Origin: Escherichia phage VEc33
Sequence record: NC_048818.1
Direction: 5' to 3' (one strand)
Length of the DNA stretch: 64,000 nucleotides
Positions 7,676 through 61,300 of the stretch are shown in pieces. The notes beneath the pieces were generated by a model. It had not been told where the DNA came from. It worked only from the letters and a program-made list of their open reading frames with translations, and ran no database searches. Within the stretch, counting starts at the first letter, position 1. Each line of letters starts with the position of its first letter. Made by a program: the position numbers and the translations under genes.

Positions 7676-7716
7676 TAAATACAGAAAAGCCCGCGCTCTC
7701 GGAGGAAACGCGGGCT
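7676..7716 (-). terminator. rho-independent terminator after the SPFH gene
   Basis: hairpin AAGCCCGCG...CGCGGGCTT followed by U-run on minus strand; convergent with 7634-7672. Confidence 0.6.
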
Positions 7717-18202: not shown

Positions 18203-20533
18203 TTATAACTGGCAACCACCAGAAGCACAACCCGCTGCTTCTTCTCCAGCCCCACCACCATTTGCAGTGTTGAAGTTTGCGTAGTACCAAGTTTTTATAC
18301 CGTACTTAACAGCAGTCATGAAATCACGAACTACTACTGGGCCAGGGATGATTTCATTCTCGAATTTAGAGTAATCATAATACATCTGGAAACTTGATGA
18401 CTGATTCAAGAATTTTTGGTAAACGGCGTTCCACTTGATCCACTCAGTGCGATCAATATCATAGGCCAGTTTATAGCTCATGAGAGTATCCCAATCGGTT
18501 GCACCTGGAGCAATTGCAATTACTTTATTCACTGCACTACCTTTGATAGATACAATCTTACGAGGTGGCTCAATTGAGTTGGTAACACCCAATAGTACAG
18601 AAGAGCTTTCTCCCGGCATCTGCGCAGTCAGAACAGAGTTACGCATACCGTATTTCAGAATATCTGCACGCAGAGATTCCCAGTCCATTTCTAGACCTAC
18701 GGATACCAGTTCATCAACAGTTTTCTTGTACGTGTCGATTACCAGAGTTCCTTTAGATGGTTTAGTACGATCGAACCATTCACATGCACCTTGCTCTTTG
18801 GCTAGACGTACAGAGGCTTTATGCAGGAAGTAAGACAGTTTTTCAGCCTCACGATGAATCCAGTTACGTGCTTCAACACCTTCGTAGGCCAAACCTTCCG
18901 CCGCCATTGCACCTGCTGCGTTCATCAGACCAATACCAACATTACGACGTTTCTTAGCCGTATATTCCATAGTTGGGAACGGATAATCCTGAATTTCAAT
19001 GATGGTATCAACGAATTTCAGAAGAATATAGCAAGTCTTTTCCCACTCAGCCAGAGATTCCATGCGTCCTAGTACAACACCACCTAAGTTACACAGAGAT
19101 ACTTCCCCAATATCCTCCGGCTTCATTTGATCAAGTTGTTCTTTTGTTTTATACAGTTCCGTGATATGATGGAACGGGCGTGTAGGCTGAGTAATTTCAA
19201 CACAAAGGTTTGTCATACGGATTGGATCAAGGAAGTTACCGTGACGATTAGATTCCCCGATGTGGTGTGCATACATACGTCCTGTTTCCATTCGGATACG
19301 TAGCCAAGTATCTAGGATTTCTTTTGCTGAGACTTTAGGAGCTGCTGGAACTGTTTTTCCTTCGTGGTCGATCTTTGTAAGAGATGCCACACGTTTCTCC
19401 GCTGCCACATAGATTTCTTCAAATTTAGCCTCGTCATCACTATAAAACGCTTCATGAACTTCTGGAGCATAGAAGTATGACATTAGCGTAATATCTTCAT
19501 TTTTCAGATAACGTTTTAACAAAAGATTGTTGAAGCTCAGAGAATAATCCATCTTATCGATTTTATTCTCATCTGTAGCACGTTGTTGCTTAACCTGCAT
19601 CAATTGAATGATTTCAGGGTCAAAGTATGGATAAGACACTGTAGCAGAACCACCACGAGTTTGCTGAGTATTGGCCTTTACTGAGCGGTCAATGTGTCGA
19701 TAATATGGCAGTTTTCCGGAATGCGGGAATGCCCCATTTCGCACCGGATCAGCAATTGATCGGCTTTCAAGATGATACCCGATTCCAGCTCTGGCTGCGA
19801 CCATTTTGAAGACGATGTGCTCGGCTGTGTCGATTGAATCCAACGTGTCAGTGGAATCCACGAGGCAGCAACTAGCAAATCCACGGTCACTAGAACGCAA
19901 ACCAACCAGTGGCGGCGTAGGAACGTTGATTTTGTGGAGCGACATTGCATTGTAGAGATCGATTGCATCTAGAATTGTCCAGTTGGGTTGAGATAACATC
20001 GCCATTGCCATGCCCATATAGGCAAATTGCGGGGTTTCGTAAATTTCGCCAGTTGCGATATTACGACGAGAATACTTATCAAAGAATTGTTTCAATCCTC
20101 CGCTAGTGAAAAGACGGTCGCGATCATGGTCGATAACCTGATTCAGAGCTTCAAATTGCTCATCGGTAATCCATGCACTCATGTCTTCCCATGCACCTAC
20201 ACTAACCATATGATCGTGGAAAAAGCGCAGAGAAGGTGGTTCGAAGGAATCATAAAGGCGTTTACGCATTTGCGCAAGACGTAATTCCTTTGCTGGCACG
20301 TCGTATGCTGGATTATCTTTGATAAGACTTTCAGCAGCCTTAATTAAAGCATCCATCAGAGTGTCGGAATCTACAATCCCCTTAGGTAGAGTTTTTTGAG
20401 CAGCCATAGTAATGGCTGACCAACTTACATCAACTGTTTTGCAACCATACTCTGCCCAACCATTGAGTTTTTCAGGAGCAAAGTCTTCTACAGTACCGTC
20501 ACGTTTAATTACTTTTTCGATGCGATGGCTCAT
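18203..20533 (-). CDS. nrdA: ribonucleotide reductase class Ia alpha subunit
   Basis: 776 aa from ATG 20533 (MSHRIEKVIKRDG, ATP-cone) with AGGAAAA RBS; track ORF extends 35 codons upstream without RBS. Confidence 0.9.
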   Translation of the reverse strand: MSHRIEKVIKRDGTVEDFAPEKLNGWAEYGCKTVDVSWSAITMAAQKTLPKGIVDSDTLMDALIKAAESLIKDNPAYDVPAKELRLAQMRKRLYDSFEPPSLRFFHDHMVSVGAWEDMSAWITDEQFEALNQVIDHDRDRLFTSGGLKQFFDKYSRRNIATGEIYETPQFAYMGMAMAMLSQPNWTILDAIDLYNAMSLHKINVPTPPLVGLRSSDRGFASCCLVDSTDTLDSIDTAEHIVFKMVAARAGIGYHLESRSIADPVRNGAFPHSGKLPYYRHIDRSVKANTQQTRGGSATVSYPYFDPEIIQLMQVKQQRATDENKIDKMDYSLSFNNLLLKRYLKNEDITLMSYFYAPEVHEAFYSDDEAKFEEIYVAAEKRVASLTKIDHEGKTVPAAPKVSAKEILDTWLRIRMETGRMYAHHIGESNRHGNFLDPIRMTNLCVEITQPTRPFHHITELYKTKEQLDQMKPEDIGEVSLCNLGGVVLGRMESLAEWEKTCYILLKFVDTIIEIQDYPFPTMEYTAKKRRNVGIGLMNAAGAMAAEGLAYEGVEARNWIHREAEKLSYFLHKASVRLAKEQGACEWFDRTKPSKGTLVIDTYKKTVDELVSVGLEMDWESLRADILKYGMRNSVLTAQMPGESSSVLLGVTNSIEPPRKIVSIKGSAVNKVIAIAPGATDWDTLMSYKLAYDIDRTEWIKWNAVYQKFLNQSSSFQMYYDYSKFENEIIPGPVVVRDFMTAVKYGIKTWYYANFNTANGGGAGEEAAGCASGGCQL

Positions 20534-20677
20534 TTGGTTTTCCTTTTTATAGTTATCAGGATTTAGGAAATAGTTTACTTTATTCTCAGTCATTTGGCAA
20601 ATAAAATTTTCTGATAGAAAAGGCCCGAGTATTTTCATACCCAGGCCTTCTGTGTTGTCAGTCTAGTTTTTGGCCAC

Positions 20678-20875
20678 TTAAGTTCTCAGCAGAATATCTA
20701 TTGAGGTACTTAGTTCATTATAATTGAAGGGCCGATTTGGATTTGAGGTTACAATTTTCCACGCTAGGGTAGTCTTAGGACTATCTTCCCCTTCCTTACG
20801 TGTAATCATATTAGCAGCACTCAGTGAAGTACGATGTATTTTTGTTTTACGGTGTAGATGTACGACGTTTCCCAT
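20678..20875 (-). CDS. hypothetical protein
   Basis: 65 aa from ATG 20875, coupled to phoH stop (TAATATG). Confidence 0.35.
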   Translation of the reverse strand: MGNVVHLHRKTKIHRTSLSAANMITRKEGEDSPKTTLAWKIVTSNPNRPFNYNELSTSIDILLRT

Positions 20876-20876
20876 A

Positions 20877-21638
20877 TTACACCTTCCCCATGTCTTTAAA
20901 AATATCGTAGAATGCTTTAGACTCAGCAGAACGAACGTTATCAATCAATTCGATCATTGAGAATGGAGCATTTTCATATTTCTCATAAACTTCCATAAGA
21001 AGAGCTAGACCTGAGTCACCTTTAATATCTTTCTGAGCTATATCTCCGCAGATAATTAAACGGCAGTCTTGTCCTACACGAGTTAGGAGACAAACCATTG
21101 CCTCAACGGAAATATTCTGAGCTTCATCGACAATTACATAGGAGTTGTTGAAAGTTCTGCCACGAGCATGTTCTATAGCCAAAAATTTAATTTTCTGACG
21201 TTCGACATATCCCTTATAGGCATGATCACCGATGGCCCATTTCATACCATCAGCTATTGGCTCCAACCAAGGCTCTAGCTTTTCTGCTAGATCACCAGGA
21301 AGCATACCAAGAGACTTACCTAGAGGTTCATTAGGACGTACGAGGATCACTTGCTCAATATCTGAGTGAATGTCTACGAGTTCCTGAGCTGCAAGAACAG
21401 ACGGGATAAAGGTTTTACCTGTACCTGGCTCACCGATACCCACAGTCACTGTGTTGTTCTTGATCATATTGATATATGATTTTTGCTCTCGGTTTTTACC
21501 TACTAGGGATTTAGCAACTGGGTTAGCGTAATCATTAGAAAAATCAGCCTGAATTACGTTATTCTCATATTTGTTGCCACGCTTTCTTGAACCATTGCGG
21601 TTCTCTCTTTTTTGACGTGCTTTTCCCATAAATAACAC
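20877..21638 (-). CDS. phoH: PhoH-like ATPase
   Basis: 253 aa; Walker A GEPGTGKTF, Walker B VIVDEAQN. Confidence 0.85.
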   Translation of the reverse strand: MLFMGKARQKRENRNGSRKRGNKYENNVIQADFSNDYANPVAKSLVGKNREQKSYINMIKNNTVTVGIGEPGTGKTFIPSVLAAQELVDIHSDIEQVILVRPNEPLGKSLGMLPGDLAEKLEPWLEPIADGMKWAIGDHAYKGYVERQKIKFLAIEHARGRTFNNSYVIVDEAQNISVEAMVCLLTRVGQDCRLIICGDIAQKDIKGDSGLALLMEVYEKYENAPFSMIELIDNVRSAESKAFYDIFKDMGKV

Positions 21639-21702
21639 TCCTATAGTGTACTTCGCTAACAGAGGATCAACAAAAAGATCTTGTTTATCAACTTACAAAT
21701 AT

Positions 21703-21731
21703 ATTATACCAGTATATGCAGTAAAAAGCAA
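21703..21731 (-). promoter_or_regulatory. sigma70-type promoter for the phoH operon
   Basis: attata 21703-21708 and aagcaa 21726-21731. Confidence 0.5.
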
Positions 21732-21843
21732 CTACAATTTTAAATAAGCCTATGATATTGCATTTAAATAAAAAATTTGCTTGCTTTTAACTGGAAATGT
21801 ATGGTATTAGATAATCATTTTATACCGCGTACATAGGCGCGTG

Positions 21844-21872
21844 ATTATACTATTTTAAGTACAAAATAGCAA
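21844..21872 (-). promoter_or_regulatory. second upstream minus-strand promoter in the divergent hub
   Basis: attata 21844-21849 and tagcaa 21867-21872. Confidence 0.45.
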
Positions 21873-21942
21873 ATAAATTTTTTAACAATTTGCTAACTTT
21901 TTAGCACAGATCAAAATACAATATCTAAGAGAAAAATTATAT

Positions 21943-21970
21943 TGACATTTGCCCTTGAATAAGCTATAAT
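21943..21970 (+). promoter_or_regulatory. consensus sigma70 promoter for nrdD (TTGACA-16-TATAAT)
   Basis: TTGACA 21943-21948, TATAAT 21965-21970, about 30 nt before the RBS AAAGGAGGG. Confidence 0.6.
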
Positions 21971-21999
21971 AGTAGTCTTAGTTAGAAAAGGAGGGTATA

Positions 22000-23874
22000 A
22001 TGAATCGCAATGATGAACTAAAATACAAGGAAATGCAGTCCTTGATTAGAAACTGCAAAGAAATTATTGAGGGTTCTGCTGATGAAGAGCTTCTCTTTAA
22101 TAATGCGAATAAACCCTCTGAGCGTTTCCCTACACAAAGGGATATGCTCGCAGGGGAATTGAGTAAATATCTGATTCTAGAAGAAATGCCAGTTCAGATT
22201 CGAAATGCTCATATGATTGGAGATATTCATTTCCATGATGCTGATTACGCTGCTTTAGGCATGACTAACTGTTGCCTAGTAGCCCTGGAAGATATGTTGA
22301 AAAATGGTATGAAAGTTGGTAATGCTGAAATTAGCACTCCAAACTCTATCACTACTGCGGCTGCTATTACAGCTCAGATTATCACACAGGTTAGCTCCCA
22401 TCAGTATGGGGGTACTTCTGTAGACCGATTAGATGAAGTATTGGCTCCTTATGTTCGTAAGTCTTATGATAAGAATCATGCGTTTGCAAAACGTTGGACT
22501 AAGGATGAAGCCAAAGCATCAGTAATGGCTACGGAGATGACTGAAAAAGAAGTCTATGATGCTTGTCAGGGTCTAGAGTATGAAATCAATACGATGTTCA
22601 ACTCTAATGGTCAGAGTCCATTTATTACCTTTGGTTTTGGTCTAGGAACTTCTTGGGAAGCACGTCTAGTACAGAAAGCAATACTGAAAGTACGTATGGA
22701 TGGCTTAGGTATCAATAAACGTACAGCTATCTTTCCGAAACTGGTGTTTGTTCTGCGTGATGGCGTAAATATGAAGCCAGGGGATGTTAATTATGACATC
22801 AAGAAGTTAGCTATGAAATGTACTGCTGAACGTATGTATCCAGACTATATCAGCTATGATAAGGTTGTGGAAGTTACTGGTGACTATAAAGTTTCTATGG
22901 GCTGCCGTTCATTCCTAGCTGCTGCAGAAGATGGTGAAACTGCCGGTCGTAATAACTTAGGTGTTGTTTCTGTAAACTTGCCTAGAATTGCTATCGAAGC
23001 TGAAGGGAATATTGATCTATTCTTTGATTTGCTTGAGCTACGTGTTGATACAGCGTTAAAAGCGTTGGAGTGGAGAGTTGATCGCTTAAAATACATTCAA
23101 GCTAAAGCCGCGCCCATCCTCTATATGTCAGGAGCCTTTGGGTTACGCTTAGGGCCTGATGAATATGTATTCGATCATTTCTATAACCGTGCTTCTGTAT
23201 CTCTGGGGTATATTGGTTGCCATGAAATGCTACAGTTCATGTTTGGCAAAGATGTAGACACAATGTCCGAGACTTGCATCAAGTTTGTTCAGCGTGTATT
23301 GCAGTACATGCGAGATAGAGTCGATCAGAAGAAGGAAGAGACTAAGTTAGGTTATAGCCTGTATGCTACACCGTCAGAGTCCCTATGCGATCGGTTTTGT
23401 CGTCTAGACCGTGAATATTTCCCGGAGCATGAAGATATTCTGTCTAAAGGATACTACACTAACTCGCACCACCTTGATGTAGAACGCAAAGTTGCTCCCA
23501 ATGTGAAATTTGATTATGAATCTAATTTTACTCCGATTGCTTCTGGTGGGTGCATTTCCTATGTAGAACTACCAGATATGAAACGATTCCCAGATGCACT
23601 GGAATGGGTTATTAATTATGCTGCTAGTAAAGTTCATTACTTCGGTATTAATACTCCAGTGGATTCTTGTAGTAAATGTGGATTCTTAGGTGAAACAATA
23701 GCATCTGAAGATGGATTTAAGTGCCCTATCTGTGGTAATCATGACCCCGAAACTCTTGAAGTAACTCGTCGAGTTTGTGGGTATCTTGGAAATCCGGGTG
23801 CTCGTCCATTTAACCCCGGCAAACAGCACGAGGTGATGGGCAGAGTGAAACATCAGGATATTCGAGCTAAATAA
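22000..23874 (+). CDS. nrdD: anaerobic ribonucleoside-triphosphate reductase (class III)
   Basis: 624 aa; C-terminal Zn ribbon CSKCGF...CPICG and glycyl-radical motif RVCGYLG. Confidence 0.9.
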   Translation: MNRNDELKYKEMQSLIRNCKEIIEGSADEELLFNNANKPSERFPTQRDMLAGELSKYLILEEMPVQIRNAHMIGDIHFHDADYAALGMTNCCLVALEDMLKNGMKVGNAEISTPNSITTAAAITAQIITQVSSHQYGGTSVDRLDEVLAPYVRKSYDKNHAFAKRWTKDEAKASVMATEMTEKEVYDACQGLEYEINTMFNSNGQSPFITFGFGLGTSWEARLVQKAILKVRMDGLGINKRTAIFPKLVFVLRDGVNMKPGDVNYDIKKLAMKCTAERMYPDYISYDKVVEVTGDYKVSMGCRSFLAAAEDGETAGRNNLGVVSVNLPRIAIEAEGNIDLFFDLLELRVDTALKALEWRVDRLKYIQAKAAPILYMSGAFGLRLGPDEYVFDHFYNRASVSLGYIGCHEMLQFMFGKDVDTMSETCIKFVQRVLQYMRDRVDQKKEETKLGYSLYATPSESLCDRFCRLDREYFPEHEDILSKGYYTNSHHLDVERKVAPNVKFDYESNFTPIASGGCISYVELPDMKRFPDALEWVINYAASKVHYFGINTPVDSCSKCGFLGETIASEDGFKCPICGNHDPETLEVTRRVCGYLGNPGARPFNPGKQHEVMGRVKHQDIRAK

Positions 23875-27062: not shown

Positions 27063-27091
27063 TTGCAGGATGCCCAAAATCTTGATATAAT
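27063..27091 (+). promoter_or_regulatory. sigma70-type promoter followed by an unusually long (about 500 nt) leader
   Basis: TTGCAG 27063-27068, TATAAT 27086-27091, conserved TATTTATATTGAATTGAGAG downstream element but no ORF start. Confidence 0.5.
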
Positions 27092-27590
27092 ATTTATATT
27101 GAATTGAGAGACATTAGTAAAAATTGATTTTGCTAATTTTTCTTGTTTACAATCCGCGATACGGAACAGTTAGGCTGCCCCATTAAGGGTTGTTTTAACT
27201 GTTACGTGTTAGTTTTTAAACAAATAGTTAATAGAATACTTAGCGATCTGCGTCCCGTAGGAACCCTGGTAAGGCCTCGAAGCAACCTAGATAGAGGTGG
27301 TTGTGAAGTGAGACGGGAGGAGTGAAAAACTCCGAGACGTGATTCTGTAAGTTATATTGCATCTAGTATGAGCTAGTATATGAAGCATTAGGTGAGCAAA
27401 TCTGGCTTAGCGGCCATCCTCAAGGATTTGTGCGGTATAGCAAAGCAGCAGCGCAGCGTGAAAGTGGAAGTTGCCACCCCACTTCAGTATTTGCGATTAA
27501 TTTGTTGAGAAATTGACAGTAACAGTTGTTCTATTCTTTCTGAATAGTCCTAAAGAAAACTTATTTCATTTCCAACACAGGAGTATTGTT

Positions 27591-30604: not shown

Positions 30605-30633
30605 TTTGCTTTCAGGAAAATTTTTCTGTATAA
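30605..30633 (+). promoter_or_regulatory. sigma70-type early promoter
   Basis: TTGCTT 30605-30610, TATAAT 30628-30633, conserved leader ATAAATTTGAGAGAGAGGAG. Confidence 0.55.
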
Positions 30634-30667
30634 TAGATTCATAAATTTGAGAGAGAGGAGTTTAAAT

Positions 30668-31633: not shown

Positions 31634-31662
31634 TTGCTTAATCCTACAATTCTTGATATAAT
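31634..31662 (+). promoter_or_regulatory. sigma70-type early promoter
   Basis: TTGCTT 31634-31639, TATAAT 31657-31662. Confidence 0.55.
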
Positions 31663-45541: not shown

Positions 45542-47360
45542 GACACTAAAATTTAGTAACGTTATGTCTTACGGTAAGGACATCGTAATTCATTTCGATA
45601 AGAATCCAGTTACTCAACTAATTGGTGGCAATGGGCTAGGGAAATCCACCATCGCTACGGTTATCGAGGAATTGTTTTATAACAAGAACTCACGTGGTAT
45701 TAAGAAGGATGCTCTGTTCTCCTGGTCTACTCCGAAAAAAGAGTATGATATGCACGCTTACTTCTCAAAAGATGAAGATGAGTATGAATTGCATAAAGTA
45801 GTTAAATCCACTGCTAAAGTAACCCTTATTAAGAATGGAGAGGATATTAGTGGACACACGGCAACCCAAACATACAAGATGATTGAAGAGATTATGGGTG
45901 GTGACTTCCAAACATTCACCAAACTGATCTATCAATCGGTGGGTTCCAATCTAGATTTTCTAAAGGCAACGGATGCAACACGTAAGGCTTTTCTTGTTAA
46001 CTTGTTCAATCAAGAACAGTACAAAGAAATGTCAGAAACTATTAAGGCTGATCGTAAAGAAATAGCAAATACCTTAAATAATTTGCAGGGCCAAATGGCT
46101 GTAATTACGAAAATTCTTAATGGAAAGAATAATCTGGGAACTTTGCAGGAACCTGTAGAAGTACCGGAGTTTGATGAAGAGCCATTAGCACAAGAACTTA
46201 CTGAATCGAAAATTAAGGCGGCATTAGCCAAGTCTCAAGAGGCTAATATTACTAAATTGCGTAATTTGGACAAAGCTGTACAAGTTGCCGAACAATCTTT
46301 CGAACCTTTCAAAAATTTACCCGCGCCCACCGACCAAAATGAAGAGATCTCGAGTGTTACGCGTGACCTAACGATTGTGACCTCACGTGCGGGCGAAGTT
46401 AAGAAACGTTATCAGAAGTTCAAGCAAGAGGCTTCAAATACTGAATGTCCTACTTGTGGTACTCATCTGGATACAACTGCTGCTCAAAAAGCAATGGATA
46501 TGGCTAGAGTAGAATATGATCCTCTGTTCAAAGAGAAGCAATCTCTTGAAGCTAAGCTAGAACAGTTGAAGAAAGAACAACTTGAGTACGTTGCGTATAC
46601 TAGAGCAAAGGATGCTTTGGATAAAGCAGTGGTAGCTAGAGACGAGTTCAAAAATTCAATGAGTGATGCTTCTTTTGAAGAACTCAATGTGCAAATCCTA
46701 CAGGTGCAAATCCGACAATTAGAACAGGAAATCGCTGATGGCCGTTCTAAGGTTGCAATTGCCAAAGAGCATAATGCAAATGTCGAATTAGCCAATGCAA
46801 AATATAAAGCAAAGCTAGAACAGATTGAGAAAGCAGAAGCAGAAATGACTGAGATTACTTCCAAACTGGATGGAGTATCAGAAGCTGTTGCTGATCTCGA
46901 TATTCTAATTGCTGCATTGAAAAATCTGGTTGGATATAAACTAGAGCATAGTGTGAAAGTATTTGAAGAGCTAATTAATAAATATCTTTCTATTATGACT
47001 GGTGGTAAATTCGCACTTGGATTTGAACTAGATGAAACTAAATTACAAGTAGTAATCTTCAATGATGGAAACCGTACCAGTATGGAAAACTGCTCTACTG
47101 GTCAGCAAAGTCGAATTAATCTAGCAACCCTGTTAGCTATTCGGATGCTGTTAACATCTATTAGTAAAGTTAATATTAATCTTCTATTCCTTGATGAAGT
47201 AATTAGCTTTATTGATACGAAGGGACTTGATACTCTCGTTGAGCTATTAAATGAGGAAGAAAGTCTAAATTCTATCATTGTTTCTCATGGGCATACGCAT
47301 CCATTAGCTCATAAGATTACTGTCAAAAAAGATGCAGAAGGATTTTCCTACTTAGAATAA
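45522..47360 (+). CDS. SbcC/Rad50-like ATPase subunit (D13-like)
   Basis: 612 aa from ATG 45522 (20-nt overlap with SbcD gene); Walker A GGNGLGKST, coiled-coil with CPTCG zinc hook, Walker B LLFLDEV. Confidence 0.8.
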   Translation: MSKITIKTLKFSNVMSYGKDIVIHFDKNPVTQLIGGNGLGKSTIATVIEELFYNKNSRGIKKDALFSWSTPKKEYDMHAYFSKDEDEYELHKVVKSTAKVTLIKNGEDISGHTATQTYKMIEEIMGGDFQTFTKLIYQSVGSNLDFLKATDATRKAFLVNLFNQEQYKEMSETIKADRKEIANTLNNLQGQMAVITKILNGKNNLGTLQEPVEVPEFDEEPLAQELTESKIKAALAKSQEANITKLRNLDKAVQVAEQSFEPFKNLPAPTDQNEEISSVTRDLTIVTSRAGEVKKRYQKFKQEASNTECPTCGTHLDTTAAQKAMDMARVEYDPLFKEKQSLEAKLEQLKKEQLEYVAYTRAKDALDKAVVARDEFKNSMSDASFEELNVQILQVQIRQLEQEIADGRSKVAIAKEHNANVELANAKYKAKLEQIEKAEAEMTEITSKLDGVSEAVADLDILIAALKNLVGYKLEHSVKVFEELINKYLSIMTGGKFALGFELDETKLQVVIFNDGNRTSMENCSTGQQSRINLATLLAIRMLLTSISKVNINLLFLDEVISFIDTKGLDTLVELLNEEESLNSIIVSHGHTHPLAHKITVKKDAEGFSYLE

Positions 47361-58317: not shown

Positions 58318-61300
58318 TTAAGAATTTCCTAGTGTTTTTAGGCTAGCACCATTCTCATTCAGAGCTAATTCTACTGCATCCCTCAGAGCACCGCTATTAC
58401 TAGAGGCGAACTCTCTAAAACTAGCAGCATCCATAGCACTAATATTCAGGATGATAGGTCTTCCTGAGGTTGAATTAGAGGAATTTTTTAACTCATCATT
58501 AGGTGTAGCTTTCATAGGAATCATAGGTGTAATTACTTCTGTACCATGTTCTCCCATCTGATAGCTAACCCCTGGGTACATATTACCACCTTCGGCACGC
58601 GGCACAAATGAATTAGCATTACCAATACCTTGATCACCACGTACATAGGATAGTTCCCCAGCATTAGCAGACATAGATACATCAATGTTCTTCTGACGCT
58701 CTCCAAGAGTTAAATAACTAGTAGTATCCGCTCCAGAATCTGCAATACTTGACATACTAGAGGCAGAGGATGCCTGCGCTAATGCCAGAGCACCTGCTAA
58801 TCCTGCCGCTACCATCAGAGGGATAGAGAACGGGTATGGTACAGCTGTTGCTGCCTGCATAACTGCTACTGCAGTTTGGATGATAATCTGCTTCTTAGCT
58901 GCATCTTGTTGAATCTTCAGCTTTTCAGCTTCTAGCTTCTTCAATTTAGCTTTAGATGCTTCTGATTTACCATCACGTTTCTGCTCCGCTGCGATAGCTG
59001 CATCAATAGCACTAACCTGTTGACTAGTACTATACTGAATCATAGAAGATACAGTTTGCATGCCAGAAGCAATCAAGGAGGTAGTATCTAGGGATCCCTG
59101 AGAGAACTGAATCATGGCGTTAGTTAAGTTACCCATACTTTGAGCCACAGCGGTTGCTTCAGAATTTAATTCAGATAGCTTAGAGATTGCCTGATCATAA
59201 GAAGCCATTCTATTTTGCATATCTGCAAAATCTTTGTCTTCCCCAGATAGTCCAGTTGTAGGAGTGTACACAGCACCCACAGAAGACCCTACCTGTTGCT
59301 GCATTTGGCCTTCTCTTTGCTTTCTAAGTTGCTCTAGAGCAGCAGCAGTTTTATAGATCTCATTACGATATTTGATCTCTTCTTCGGTATTGCCCTTAGA
59401 TAGTTCTAGCTGTTCTTGCAAAACAGATAATCTTTCTGTAAGAATCTGGGCTTGGCCAGTAACATTTCTTTGTGTTTGGCTGACTTCTAATGCATCCATA
59501 AGAGCTGATACATGTGATGCAGTTGCCTGCTTCTCAGCCTCCCATAACTCCCGGCTTATTTGTGCTTGCGCACGTCTAGACTGTTCCGCCTCTTTCTGTT
59601 TGTCCGCTTGTTTTGTATACCATTCGTACTTCTCTTTCTCTACAGTTAGTTCTAGTTTTAGCTGAGCTAATCTATATTGAGTAGTAGTCATAGTACGGTC
59701 ATTCAGAAGAGCTATCTCACGATCTACACCAAGAATTTTATCTGTGTAATCCTTGACCTTCTTCTGAGCTTCCATACCCTGATTGGTAAGTTTAAGTTTC
59801 TCCAGCTGAATTTTTTCAATTTCTTTTTCAACAGCTTTATTCCCCTGGTTTGTTTGAAGAACACGGCGTAAAGCAGCTTCTTGCTCTTCTAACTGTTGCA
59901 ACTCTAAACGTCTACCAGCTTCCTGAGCCTTTTCCTTATCCTTAGTTTGATTATACACATCAGCTATTTTCTGTTGAACTGCTAATTGATTTTTAGTTTC
60001 ATTACCAGTTAGTTTAACATACTCAGATAGAGCCTGAGATGCAGTTTTCATTTCAGACAGGGTGTTATAGCCCAGGTTAAGGTTTTTAACATACTCATCG
60101 GCACTCTTACCAGTGCCTAAGGATAGAGATTCTATGTTTTTTATAGCATCTGCTAAAGTAGCACTAGTTTTAGCAGCAGTATCTGTATTCTGAGCAACGT
60201 TCTGTATATCATTAGCTAAGTCACTAGCAGTTTTCTTAGTTTGATTATATGCTTTCTGTTGTTCAGTTAGTCCTTTTAATACTGTGGAGTTAAAGTCATA
60301 TACAGCACCAGGATCAGTAGTATCCCTCTGTAGATTAATCTGTTTTTGGAATTCTGGATTAGCTTTTGCAGCAGCAGCACCCGCAGCTTGATAGGCTGAC
60401 TTCCAAGCATTAAGGTTTTCAGTAGAATCTTCTACTTCCTTACCTAGTCTGGTTACTTGTAGACCCATAGCCGCAGTTTCTTCTACGAACTTTTTATTAG
60501 CTTCGGAAGCACCAGCAGCAGCAAGACCAACAGGAATACCTTCACCAACTTGACGTATGGCTAATCTTGTATAGAAATCCGCTTGCTCCATTCGTTTATC
60601 GAATTCGGATTTTAGCTTATTACGCTTATCAAGAGATTCCTTATACATATCTAGAGCTTTATTATAACCTTCTTCAGAAGCGGCCAAACTTAAAGCAACA
60701 GCACCAACGTTGGTAGGATCTATCTGTCTATTGGTTTTTTCTTGAGCTCTAGCTGCTTCAGCAGATACAGAAGCCTGAGAAGTATAAAATACTGTGTTGA
60801 TAGCATCAATTACCGGCCCTAAATACTTAGCAGCAGCCTGCTGAATCTTTCTCAGCGCGGCATCAGCATTAGCGGCAAATTGCTCCCATGGAGTAGCACG
60901 TAAAACTTCATCTAAGTAACCAAAACGTTTAGTAGACTCTGCTATAACAGCATTAGCATACGCTTGCTGTTTCTGGAAGGTAGTAAGGCTATTAATATTA
61001 TACGTTATACCTGTGTTTGCAGCATTTAACTGTTTAACGTAATCAGCATAAGCATCATTAAGACGAATAGTAACACCAAGTTCATCCAGAAGTTCGATTT
61101 CCTGTTTAGATACACCCTTAATTACACGGTTAAGTGCATCAGTCATATCAACGCCAAGAACAGCAGCAGCACGACGAGCTACTAGACCAAATTTATTAAG
61201 TTGTTCAGCATCAAAACCGTATGCAGAAGCAGAGGATGCTTGTCTCATAGCTTCTTCAAAGGAAATAGCGTACCCGGCTGCTTCTTGTAGGGATCTAGCA

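What the first reader, a model, noticed from the sequence alone, without database searches (positions are those of the whole stretch)
21640..22000. Divergent promoter hub separating the two early blocks
A 360-bp AT-rich intergenic region carries two tandem minus-strand promoters (21703-21731, 21844-21872) and a consensus plus-strand promoter (21943-21970) for nrdD. The roughly 100-nt segment between the two minus-strand promoters would give a short leader or sRNA.
Basis: seen in the sequence. Interest (0 to 1): 0.28.

Follow-up and report, generated by a model that had tools for sequence, protein, structure and literature searches.

The report
T5 phoH/nrdD divergent early promoter region
This is the already-annotated stretch of a T5-like coliphage genome where host RNA polymerase starts early transcription leftward (phoH and the aerobic ribonucleotide reductase genes) and rightward (nrdD); the promoters are real, but nothing supports a small RNA.

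Summary
The window is a T5-like phage (Tequintavirus; T5 itself is 97.8% identical here). Positions 21630-21999 are the 370-bp, 27% G+C spacer between phoH (minus strand) and nrdD (plus strand).

- P1, minus, 21731-21703: TTGCTT-17-TATAAT.
- P2, minus, 21872-21844: TTGCTA-17-TATAAT.
- P3, plus, 21942-21970: TTGACA-17-TATAAT.

Three such sites in 370 bp occurred in 1 of 5000 shuffles. GenBank record AY543070 (phage T5) already annotates the same three promoters, so the feature is known.

Across the window, every T5-type promoter left of the spacer points left. Every one to its right, up to about 43 kb, points right. The spacer is therefore the true divergence point of the early genes.

- P1 is a textbook T5 early promoter, including the ATATT discriminator, and is invariant in relatives.
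- P2 keeps its hexamers and spacing while its spacer sequence changes. Its discriminator is unusually G+C-rich. It is missing where homing-endonuclease genes have been inserted.

The sRNA idea fails. There is no terminator, no fold signal, no Rfam match and no ORF, and the segment is conserved even where P2 is absent.

Still unexplained are an invariant block (TAGATAATCATTT), a G+C-rich palindrome, and a possible weak fourth promoter pointing right.

The parts
20877..21629 (-). phoH (PhoH-like ATPase), first gene of the leftward early block. The real start is the ATG at 21629; the GTG at 21638 listed by the ORF tool is an upstream extension.
   Evidence: ORF; Pfam PhoH, E = 1e-61; T5 annotation.
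21639..21643 (-). Shine-Dalgarno AGGAG of phoH, 8-9 nt upstream of the ATG.
   Evidence: Sequence; invariant in all relatives.
21630..21696 (-). Predicted 67-nt phoH leader from P1. The start site at G21696 is inferred from the 7-nt distance to the -10 hexamer, as in other T5 promoters. The leader contains two GATC sites.
   Evidence: Inferred. It is 100% identical even in relatives whose phoH third-codon identity is 76-78%. No fold signal, z = 0.10.
21703..21731 (-). P1, a canonical T5 early-class promoter: TTGCTT-17-TATAAT followed by the ATATT discriminator and a TGTAAGTTGA start region.
   Evidence: PWM built from 26 other T5-type promoters: score 45.1, rank 20 of about 128,000 positions. 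Invariant in 28 of 29 sequences. Annotated in T5 AY543070, AY692264 and AY587007 (as 'T5P30'). The ATATT rule is from PMC7472727.
21732..21799 (.). Conserved A/T-rich upstream region of P1. On the plus strand, 21769-21788 (TAAAAAATTTGCTTGCTTTT) mirrors the upstream and -35 part of P2.
   Evidence: Inverted repeats I1 and I2. 94% identity where the neutral expectation is about 77%.
21777..21809 (+). Candidate fourth promoter ('P4'), pointing right. The -35 hexamer is TTGCTT (21777-82 or 21781-86). The -10 hexamer is weak here (TATGGT or GGTATT), better in relatives (TATGAT; TGTGATACT), and best in phage My1 (TTGACA-16-GATACT).
   Evidence: PWM score 8.8, rank 31, comparable to P2 and P3 but driven by the upstream half. 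Function not shown.
21808..21820 (.). Invariant block TAGATAATCATTT, function unknown.
   Evidence: Identical in every T5-like sequence examined except gmork (TAGATACTCAACT) and L019 (one A-to-G change). Also identical in Pectobacterium phage My1, whose PhoH is only 67% identical. Kept in relatives that lack P2. Unique within the window.
21825..21843 (.). G+C-rich island and imperfect palindrome CCGCG-TACATAGG-CGCG-TG, alternating purine/pyrimidine. It forms the discriminator and initial transcribed region of P2.
   Evidence: A G+C-rich island sits at the same place, with a different sequence, in My1, KKP_3711 and Klebsiella phage K7PH164C4. The plus-strand fold of 21812-21900 gives z = -2.36. 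No compensatory changes.
21844..21872 (-). P2, the upstream tandem leftward promoter: TTGCTA-17-TATAAT, with a T5-type upstream tract (TTAAAAAATTTAT) but a G+C-rich discriminator, CACGCGCC. Predicted start near 21838.
   Evidence: PWM score 8.6, rank 33. The hexamers and 17-18 nt spacing persist while the -35 varies (TTGCTA, TTGCCA, TTGCTT, TTGACA) and the spacer sequence is replaced. Present in 19 of 29 sequences. Annotated only in AY543070.
21877..21894 (.). An 18-nt segment (ATTTTTTAACAATTTGCT) found only in the T5 subgroup and absent from Epseptimavirus relatives.
   Evidence: Alignment.
21901..21914 (+). Degenerate FNR/CRP-family-like box TTAGC-ACAG-ATCAA (7 of 10), ending 27 nt upstream of the nrdD -35 hexamer.
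   Evidence: background-level match in this window. Relatives carry 9 of 10 matches at the same 27-nt distance.
21942..21970 (+). P3, the nrdD promoter: perfect sigma-70 consensus TTGACA-17-TATAAT. Predicted start near 21975-21978.
   Evidence: 12 of 12. It is the only site's list, which covers TTG-type -35 hexamers across the window, that combines TTGACA with TATAAT. Both hexamers are invariant in all relatives where nrdD is adjacent. Annotated in AY543070 and AY692264.
21988..21994 (+). Shine-Dalgarno AAGGAGG of nrdD.
   Evidence: Sequence; conserved.
22000..23874 (+). nrdD (anaerobic ribonucleoside-triphosphate reductase), first gene of the rightward early block.
   Evidence: (Pfam NRDD, E = 2e-172, plus Gly_radical).

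Best explanation
The region is the divergent early promoter spacer of a T5-like phage.

How it works:
- Unmodified host sigma-70 RNA polymerase starts leftward at two tandem promoters. P1 should start near 21696 and P2 near 21838. Both would read into phoH and the genes beyond it (T5.097, nrdA and further).
- The polymerase starts rightward at a perfect-consensus promoter, P3, near 21977. P3 would read into nrdD and the rightward early block.
- P1 is a standard T5 early-class promoter: an A-tract, TTGCTT, 17 nt, TATAAT, then ATATT.
- P2 is an accessory promoter with a G+C-rich discriminator. It adds a longer leader and is dispensable in many relatives.
- The stretch between P2 and P1 is mainly P1's conserved upstream region, not an RNA gene.

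Shown here: the sequence motifs, their statistical excess, their orientation relative to the genes, and their conservation.

Inferred: the start sites, promoter activity in vivo, and read-through from P2 into phoH.
For: - Identity of the phage: 442 phage records match, and T5 is 97.8% identical.
- Prior annotation: T5 record AY543070 places promoters at positions equal to window 21677-21751 (minus), 21815-21889 (minus) and 21923-21997 (plus). Two other T5 records annotate subsets.
- Statistics: 3 sites observed against 0.107 expected; 1 of 5000 shuffles reached 3.
- Orientation: all T5-type promoters from 141 to 21872 are on the minus strand, and all from 21942 to 43369 are on the plus strand. 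GC skew changes sign at 22 kb.
- PWM trained on 26 other promoters in the window: P1 ranks 20, P3 30 and P2 33 among about 128,000 positions.
- Promoter class: P1 carries the ATATT discriminator reported for all known T5 early promoters (PMC7472727).
- Conservation: P1 is invariant in 28 of 29 sequences. P2's hexamers and spacing are kept while the -35 and spacer sequences vary. P3 is invariant.
- The same divergent layout holds in My1, the Klebsiella Sugarlandvirus phage, KKP_3711 and Vibrio phage D30.
- In phiR2-01 the reverse block ends at g090 (PhoH) and the forward block starts at g091 (PMC8624392).
Against: - I found no transcription start-site data for this spacer in the accessible literature, so activity and start sites are inferred.
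- P2 lacks the early-class ATATT element. Two of the three T5 GenBank annotations do not list it. It is absent in 10 of 29 relatives.
- The general consensus scan over 20500-23000 finds no more sites than shuffles do at its lax 9-of-12 threshold.
- An invariant block and a G+C-rich palindrome in the middle of the spacer are not explained by this simple model.
Confidence: 0.85

Rival explanations
1. The segment between P2 and P1 (about 21697-21838, minus strand) encodes a discrete small RNA or a structured regulatory leader.
For: P2 would transcribe this segment, and it is well conserved: 94% identity where about 77% is expected.
Against: - No terminator-like site between P2 and phoH.
- Fold z-scores of 0.07 and -0.51.
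- No credible Rfam match: the only hit inside the spacer is FIE3, E = 5.6, at 21851-21913 and outside this segment.
- No tRNA and no ORF.
- The segment stays conserved in S124-, Shivani- and gmork-type phages that lack P2, so its conservation does not depend on being transcribed from P2.
Confidence: 0.04
2. The spacer holds an extra regulatory layer. A fourth, rightward promoter (P4; -35 at 21777-21786) would fire face-to-face against P2 across the conserved block and G+C-rich palindrome (21808-21843). Leftward and rightward expression would then interfere with each other, or the palindrome would act as an operator or as a cruciform/Z-DNA sink for transcription-induced supercoiling.
For: - Plus strand 21769-21788 is 85% complementary to P2's upstream and -35 part (repeat I2).
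- The P4 PWM score of 8.8 (rank 31) equals those of P2 and P3.
- Relatives have better -10 hexamers (TATGAT in 4 of 29), and My1 has TTGACA-16-GATACT in the same register.
- TAGATAATCATTT is invariant even in My1.
- A G+C-rich alternating island is kept in position, but not in sequence, across genera.
- The plus-strand fold has z = -2.36.
Against: - P4's -10 hexamer in this window is poor (TATGGT or GGTATT; the PWM's best -10 is TATTAG, which lacks the final T).
- There are no compensatory changes in the hairpin.
- The invariant block has no pairing partner in phages that lack P2.
- KKP_3711 and the Klebsiella phage have no P4-like site.
- No T5 record annotates such a promoter.
Confidence: 0.15
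3. The AT-rich spacer is also the primary bidirectional replication origin of the phage, with transcription and replication leaving it in the same directions.
For: - The position corresponds to about 44% of the T5 genome.
- Cumulative GC skew has its minimum here.
- Internal origins of bidirectional synthesis have been reported for T5 (cited in PMC3632103).
Against: - GC skew follows gene orientation and flips again near 50 kb, where the genes turn, so it says nothing specific about replication.
- There are no iterons or tandem repeats.
- The best DnaA-box match is 7 of 9.
- The long structured non-coding region next to the origin-binding-protein gene at about 27.1-27.6 kb is at least as good a candidate.
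Confidence: 0.04
4. P2 is a chance promoter-like match or a decaying relic in AT-rich DNA, and only P1 and P3 are used.
For: Two of three T5 annotations omit P2. It lacks the early-class ATATT element. It is absent in 10 of 29 relatives.
Against: - Four different -35 variants (TTGCTA, TTGCCA, TTGCTT, TTGACA) are found.
- One relative (L032) has a fully replaced spacer yet keeps a TATAAT hexamer at 17-18 nt.
- The upstream tract TTAAAAAATTTAT is of T5 type.
- Where P2 is lost in gmork, the inserted gene brings another leftward promoter (my reading of the sequence).
Confidence: 0.08

Closest known systems
The annotated phoH/nrdD intergenic promoters of phage T5 (GenBank AY543070; partly in AY692264, and in AY587007 as 'T5P30')
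   Same: Same locus, same three promoters and same strands. The window is 97.8% identical to T5 over 21000-22600.
   Different: Only a few base changes. For example, the P2 discriminator is CACGCGCC here and CCTGCGCC in T5. The T5 features are sequence predictions, not mapped start sites.
Classical strong T5 promoters recognised by E. coli sigma-70 RNA polymerase (PN25, PH207, P25 and others; Gentz and Bujard 1985, cited in PMC7472727)
   Same: P1 shares the full architecture: an upstream A-tract, a TTGCTT/A -35 hexamer, a 17-nt spacer, TATAAT, an ATATT-type discriminator and a conserved start region. P2 shares the upstream half. From memory, I recognise window 30606-30634 as PN25 and 14359-14331 as PH207.
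   Different: I cannot show that the promoters in this spacer are among the experimentally characterised ones. P2 has a G+C-rich discriminator. P3 uses TTGACA rather than TTGCTx.
Tandem promoters with a G+C-rich discriminator, such as E. coli rrn P1/P2 (established knowledge, not tested here)
   Same: Two promoters in series feed one operon. One of them (P2) has a G+C-rich stretch between the -10 hexamer and the start, the feature that makes rrn P1 sensitive to ppGpp/DksA and to the initiating NTP.
   Different: This is purely an analogy. No data on ppGpp sensitivity exist, and the downstream genes encode proteins.
Face-to-face or back-to-back promoter switches, such as coliphage 186 pR/pL and lambda pR/pRM (established knowledge)
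   Same: Closely packed promoters on opposite strands in one short spacer.
   Different: T5 is strictly lytic. No repressor or operator is known here. The face-to-face partner (P4) is only a candidate.

Membership tests
Sigma-70 promoter | -35 and -10 hexamers close to TTGACA and TATAAT, with a 17 +/- 1 nt spacer | tested here: met
   P1 is TTGCTT-17-TATAAT, P2 is TTGCTA-17-TATAAT and P3 is TTGACA-17-TATAAT. Excess over shuffles: 1 of 5000 reached 3 sites.
Sigma-70 promoter | Correct orientation and position upstream of a gene, and conservation of the hexamers and spacing among relatives | tested here: met
Sigma-70 promoter | A mapped transcription start and RNA polymerase binding | not testable with these tools
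   No start-site data for this spacer were found in the accessible papers.
T5 early-class promoter | ATATT discriminator immediately after the -10 hexamer (PMC7472727) | tested here: met
   Met for P1 (TATAAT-ATATTTG). Not met for P2 (CACGCGCC) or P3 (AGTAGTC).
T5 early-class promoter | Upstream A-tract plus a TTGCT(T/A) -35 hexamer, scored with a PWM built from 26 other promoters in the window | tested here: met
   P1 scores 45.1, within the range of the training set. P2 scores 8.6, carried by its upstream half. P3 scores 9.1.
Small RNA or structured cis-regulatory leader | Its own 3' end or terminator | tested here: not met
   No terminator-like site lies between 21838 and 21630 on the minus strand.
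Small RNA or structured cis-regulatory leader | A fold more stable than shuffled sequence, covariation, or a match to a known RNA family | tested here: not met
   z = 0.07, -0.51 and 0.10. The only Rfam hit inside the spacer is FIE3 at E = 5.6. The plus-strand hairpin has z = -2.36 but no compensatory changes.
T5 single-strand interruption (nick) site | Consensus R/GCGCRGG on the nicked (minus) strand (PMC3517423) | tested here: not met
   The only exact matches are at 7690, 46320 and 58773, all on the minus strand. The minus strand of the spacer reads CACGCGCCTA.
Host transcription-factor operator (Fur, FNR, CRP, NrdR, PhoB, ArcA) | A close match to the consensus box. The consensus sequences were taken from memory. 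| tested here: not met
   Best matches are Fur 12 of 19, FNR 7 of 10, CRP 7 of 10 and NrdR 10 of 16, all at the background level for AT-rich DNA.
Replication origin | Iterons, DnaA boxes or initiator sites next to an AT-rich unwinding element | tested here: inconclusive
   The region is AT-rich, but there are no direct-repeat iterons and the best DnaA-box match is 7 of 9. GC skew is confounded by gene orientation. The site bound by the T5 initiator is unknown.

The most novel reading that the evidence does not exclude
The spacer may be more than three independent promoters. A fourth, rightward T5-type promoter (-35 at 21777-21786) may face P2 across an invariant block (TAGATAATCATTT) and a G+C-rich alternating purine/pyrimidine palindrome that keeps its position across genera. 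Expression of the aerobic ribonucleotide reductase block (leftward) and the anaerobic one (rightward) would then be coupled, through promoter interference or through a supercoiling-sensitive DNA structure.
Probability: 0.1. Interest if true: 0.4.

Novelty: already known. Interest (0 to 1): 0.12.

Why it matters
It matters little on its own. The result confirms that the annotated T5 phoH/nrdD promoter spacer is intact in this relative, and that it is the single point where early transcription diverges.

Its practical value is for annotation:
- P1 can be transferred with confidence to T5-like genomes.
- P2 is an optional module that is lost when homing-endonuclease genes are inserted.
- Small ORFs called inside this spacer in some records, such as the 47-aa ORF in vB_SenS-AKM_ECS, are not conserved genes.

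The unexplained invariant block and G+C-rich palindrome would deserve attention only if start-site mapping shows convergent transcription there.

Tried and rejected
- **Rfam** on 20500-23000 at E <= 10: only implausible eukaryotic or sub-threshold hits.
- **tRNA, tandem-repeat and ORF scans:** nothing found. The 47-aa ORF annotated in vB_SenS-AKM_ECS is broken by a TAG codon in this window and in T5 (my reading).
- **Terminator scan:** nothing between P2 and phoH.
- **RNA folds of the P2 and P1 leaders:** no signal.
- **Covariation test of the plus-strand hairpin at 21812-21847:** 97% of cells pair, but there are no double changes and the shuffle control was uninformative.
- **T5 nick site:** rejected. 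The consensus R/GCGCRGG does not occur in the spacer on the nicked strand.
- **Host factor boxes** (Fur, FNR, CRP, NrdR, PhoB, ArcA, DnaA, IHF): background-level matches only. GATAATCATT does match the core of the Fur box, but the full site is only 12 of 19, as are other places in the spacer.
- **Replication origin from GC skew:** rejected as uninformative, because the skew follows gene direction and flips again near 50 kb.
- **Literature:** I found no start-site mapping of this spacer. Gentz and Bujard 1985 (PMC214212) is not held, so I could not check whether these promoters are among the 19 characterised in vitro.
- **Internal repeat of TAGATAATCATTT:** it is unique in the window.
Full report
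**What the window is.** A megablast of 21000-22600 finds 442 phage records, almost all T5-like phages of Escherichia and Salmonella. The best hits are 98-99% identical, and T5 itself is 97.8% identical. The finding therefore lies in a Tequintavirus genome. It sits between phoH on the minus strand (Pfam PhoH, E = 1e-61) and nrdD on the plus strand (Pfam NRDD, E = 2e-172).

**Checking the observation.**
- P1, minus strand, 21731-21703: TTGCTT-17-TATAAT.
- P2, minus strand, 21872-21844: TTGCTA-17-TATAAT.
- P3, plus strand, 21942-21970: TTGACA-17-TATAAT.

The tool's scan did not list P1 because it scores the -35 hexamer only against TTGACA. My scan of the whole window shows that TTGCTT/TTGCTA is the normal -35 hexamer of this phage's promoters.

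Sites of the form TTGnnn-(16-18)-TATAAT are expected 0.107 times in dinucleotide shuffles of the spacer. Three were observed, and 1 of 5000 shuffles reached three. The whole window has 31 such sites against 4.7 in shuffles.

**It is already annotated.** GenBank record AY543070 (phage T5) carries three 'promoter' features in this spacer. Converted to window coordinates (record = window + 31961), they lie at 21677-21751 (minus), 21815-21889 (minus) and 21923-21997 (plus, assigned to nrdD). AY692264 annotates P1 and P3. AY587007 annotates P1 as 'putative early promoter T5P30'. These are predictions. I found no start-site mapping of this spacer in the papers I could search, and Gentz and Bujard 1985 is not held.

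**Does it separate two early blocks?** Yes.
- In my window-wide scan, every T5-type promoter from 141 to 21872 is on the minus strand, and every one from 21942 to 43369 is on the plus strand.
- GC skew changes sign at 22 kb.
- The T5 annotation shows hegH, nrdA, T5.097 and phoH on the minus strand, and nrdD and T5.100-T5.104 on the plus strand.
- For the related phage phiR2-01, the published description gives a reverse block g011-g090 (g090 is PhoH) and a forward block g091-g122 (PMC8624392).
- The same divergent layout holds in mar003J3, a Klebsiella Sugarlandvirus phage, Enterobacter phage KKP_3711, Pectobacterium phage My1 and a Vibrio phage whose PhoH is only 36% identical.

**What kind of promoters.** The window's promoters share a clear architecture: an A-tract (AAAAATTTnn), TTGCT(T/A), 17 nt, TATAAT, then ATATTCATAAATTGA. 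Klimuk et al. state that all T5 early promoters identified so far carry ATATT in the discriminator (PMC7472727).
- P1 fits completely (TATAAT-ATATTTGTAAGTTGA).
- I built a two-block PWM from 26 other promoters in the window. P1 scores 45.1, rank 20 of about 128,000 positions, which is as good as the training promoters.
- P3 scores 9.1 (rank 30) and P2 scores 8.6 (rank 33), both far above the 99.9th percentile of -12.9.
- P2 has the typical upstream half (TTAAAAAATTTAT-TTGCTA) but a G+C-rich discriminator, CACGCGCC.
- P3 uses the E. coli consensus TTGACA and the discriminator AGTAGTC.

By analogy with the other promoters, starts are expected at G21696 (P1, a 67-nt leader), near 21838 (P2, about 209 nt) and near 21975-21978 (P3, about 23 nt with a strong AAGGAGG). 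These start sites are inferences.

**Conservation.** I aligned the spacer from T5, eight annotated relatives and 28 IMG/VR loci.
- P1 with its discriminator is identical in 28 of 29 sequences. My1 has TTGCCA-17-TAGAAT at the same place.
- P3's hexamers are invariant wherever nrdD is adjacent.
- P2 is present in 19 of 29 sequences. Its -35 hexamer varies (TTGCTA, TTGCCA, TTGCTT, TTGACA). The spacer is 17 or 18 nt, and in L032 its sequence is replaced entirely. TATAAT and a G+C-rich discriminator are always kept. That pattern points to selection on promoter function.
- For the most divergent T5-like relatives, phoH third-codon identity is 76-78%. In the same relatives the P1 leader is 100% identical and 21732-21799 is 94% identical. 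The right part, 21873-21941, is only about 50% identical.

The spacer is thus a mosaic junction, with a strongly constrained left module and a fast-changing right module.

**Gene insertions on the right side.** In 10 of 29 sequences the right module is replaced.
- S124- and Shivani-type phages carry a 287-aa gene (zinc finger, CapR and T5orf172/MUG113 domains) with its own TTGACA-17-TATAAT promoter.
- Phage gmork carries an HNH_3 + AP2 gene on the minus strand.
- phiR2-01 has an HNH endonuclease gene in front of nrdD.

These look like homing-endonuclease-type insertions, and they explain the loss of P2 in those phages.

**The sRNA or leader idea.**
- No terminator-like site lies between P2 and phoH on the minus strand.
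- The minus-strand RNAs 21838-21630 and 21838-21697 fold no better than shuffles, z = 0.07 and -0.51. The P1 leader gives z = 0.10.
- There is no credible Rfam match, no tRNA, no ORF of 20 aa or more on the minus strand and no tandem repeat.
- The segment is conserved in phages that have lost P2, so its conservation cannot be due to a P2-derived RNA.

I conclude that the segment is mainly the upstream region of P1, and that P2 merely adds a longer leader.

**What remains unexplained.**
- **The invariant block.** TAGATAATCATTT (21808-21820) is identical in nearly all the T5-like sequences; gmork and L019 differ. It is also identical in My1, where the rest of the spacer has diverged. It is unique in the window.
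- **The G+C-rich island.** Just to the right of the block lies an imperfect palindrome (21825-21843) that forms P2's discriminator. My1, KKP_3711 and the Klebsiella phage each have a G+C-rich, largely alternating purine/pyrimidine island at the same place with a different sequence.
- **A possible fourth promoter.** Just to the left, the plus strand (21769-21788) is 85% complementary to P2's upstream and -35 part. It scores as a T5-type promoter (P4) at 8.8, rank 31. Its -10 hexamer is poor here (TATGGT or GGTATT), better in some relatives (TATGAT in 4 of 29) and best in My1 (TTGACA-16-GATACT). If active, P4 would fire face-to-face against P2, with start sites about 25 bp apart.
- **A plus-strand fold signal.** A plus-strand RNA over 21812-21900 folds better than shuffles, z = -2.36. 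The hairpin shows only one-sided (G-U) changes and no compensatory pairs.

I rate an extra regulatory layer here at about 0.15.

**Alternatives rejected.**
- **T5 nick site.** The published major-nick consensus R/GCGCRGG (PMC3517423) hits the window only at 7690, 46320 and 58773, all on the minus strand. The first two fit the classical 32.6% and 64.8% nicks, and T5 annotates one of them. The minus strand of the spacer does not match.
- **Host factor boxes.** Consensus sequences taken from memory give background-level matches only.
- **Replication origin.** This cannot be judged from skew, because skew tracks gene direction. No iterons are present.

**Verdict.** The promoter-hub interpretation is correct and already in the public T5 annotation. 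The sRNA suggestion is not supported. Interest is low.

Noticed in passing
window 27098-27585 (+), with promoter-like sites at 27063-27091 and 27124-27153: A non-coding stretch of about 490 nt lies between an annotated T5 promoter and the gene for the 'putative replication origin binding protein' (T5.108, the D2 helicase). The RNA fold gives z = -2.89, with 1 of 100 shuffles as stable, and shows long-range pairing. There is no Rfam match. The second promoter-like site has a G+C-rich discriminator (CCGCGAT), like P2. This could be a structured leader, a stable RNA or an origin region.
   Followed up: partly
L009 1797-2660 (S124); L010 1800-2663 (Shivani); L007 586-1077 (gmork); L008 751 onward (phiR2-01): The nrdD-proximal half of the spacer is an insertion hot spot for homing-endonuclease-type genes: a zinc finger + CapR + T5orf172/MUG113 protein, an HNH_3 + AP2 protein, and the HNH endonuclease F-TflVI. 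Ten of 29 relatives lack P2 as a result.
   Followed up: partly
window 21901-21914; relatives L004, L039 and L040 at the equivalent place: Epseptimavirus phages, mar003J3 and a Klebsiella Sugarlandvirus phage carry an FNR-like box (TTGAC, TTGAG or ATGAT, then N4, then ATCAA; 9 of 10). In mar003J3, the Klebsiella phage and this window it ends exactly 27 nt upstream of the nrdD -35 hexamer, although the intervening sequence differs. The T5 subgroup, including this window, has a degenerate copy (7 of 10). This hints at host FNR input to the phage's anaerobic reductase gene in some lineages.
   Followed up: partly
window 7690-7697 (-), 46320-46327 (-), 58773-58780 (-): These are exact matches to the T5 major-nick consensus R/GCGCRGG, all on the minus strand. 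The first two correspond to the classical 32.6% and 64.8% single-strand interruptions, and T5 annotates the first.
   Followed up: yes
window 30606-30634 (+), 14359-14331 (-), 31634-31662 (+): From memory, these sequences match the classical T5 promoters PN25 (used in pQE-type vectors), PH207 and P25 respectively. I could not check them against the original paper.
   Followed up: no
L004 572-715 (vB_SenS-AKM_ECS); 'hypothetical protein (x2)' entries in several records: Small ORFs annotated inside this spacer in some relatives are not conserved. The 47-aa ORF is interrupted by a TAG codon in this window and in T5, so these are probably over-calls.
   Followed up: yes
window 21666-21669 and 21677-21680: Two GATC (Dam) sites, 11 bp apart start to start, lie in the perfectly conserved P1 leader, the second within a BglII-like palindrome (AAGATCTT). 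phiR2-01 keeps two GATC sites with a shorter gap. Their significance is unknown.
   Followed up: no
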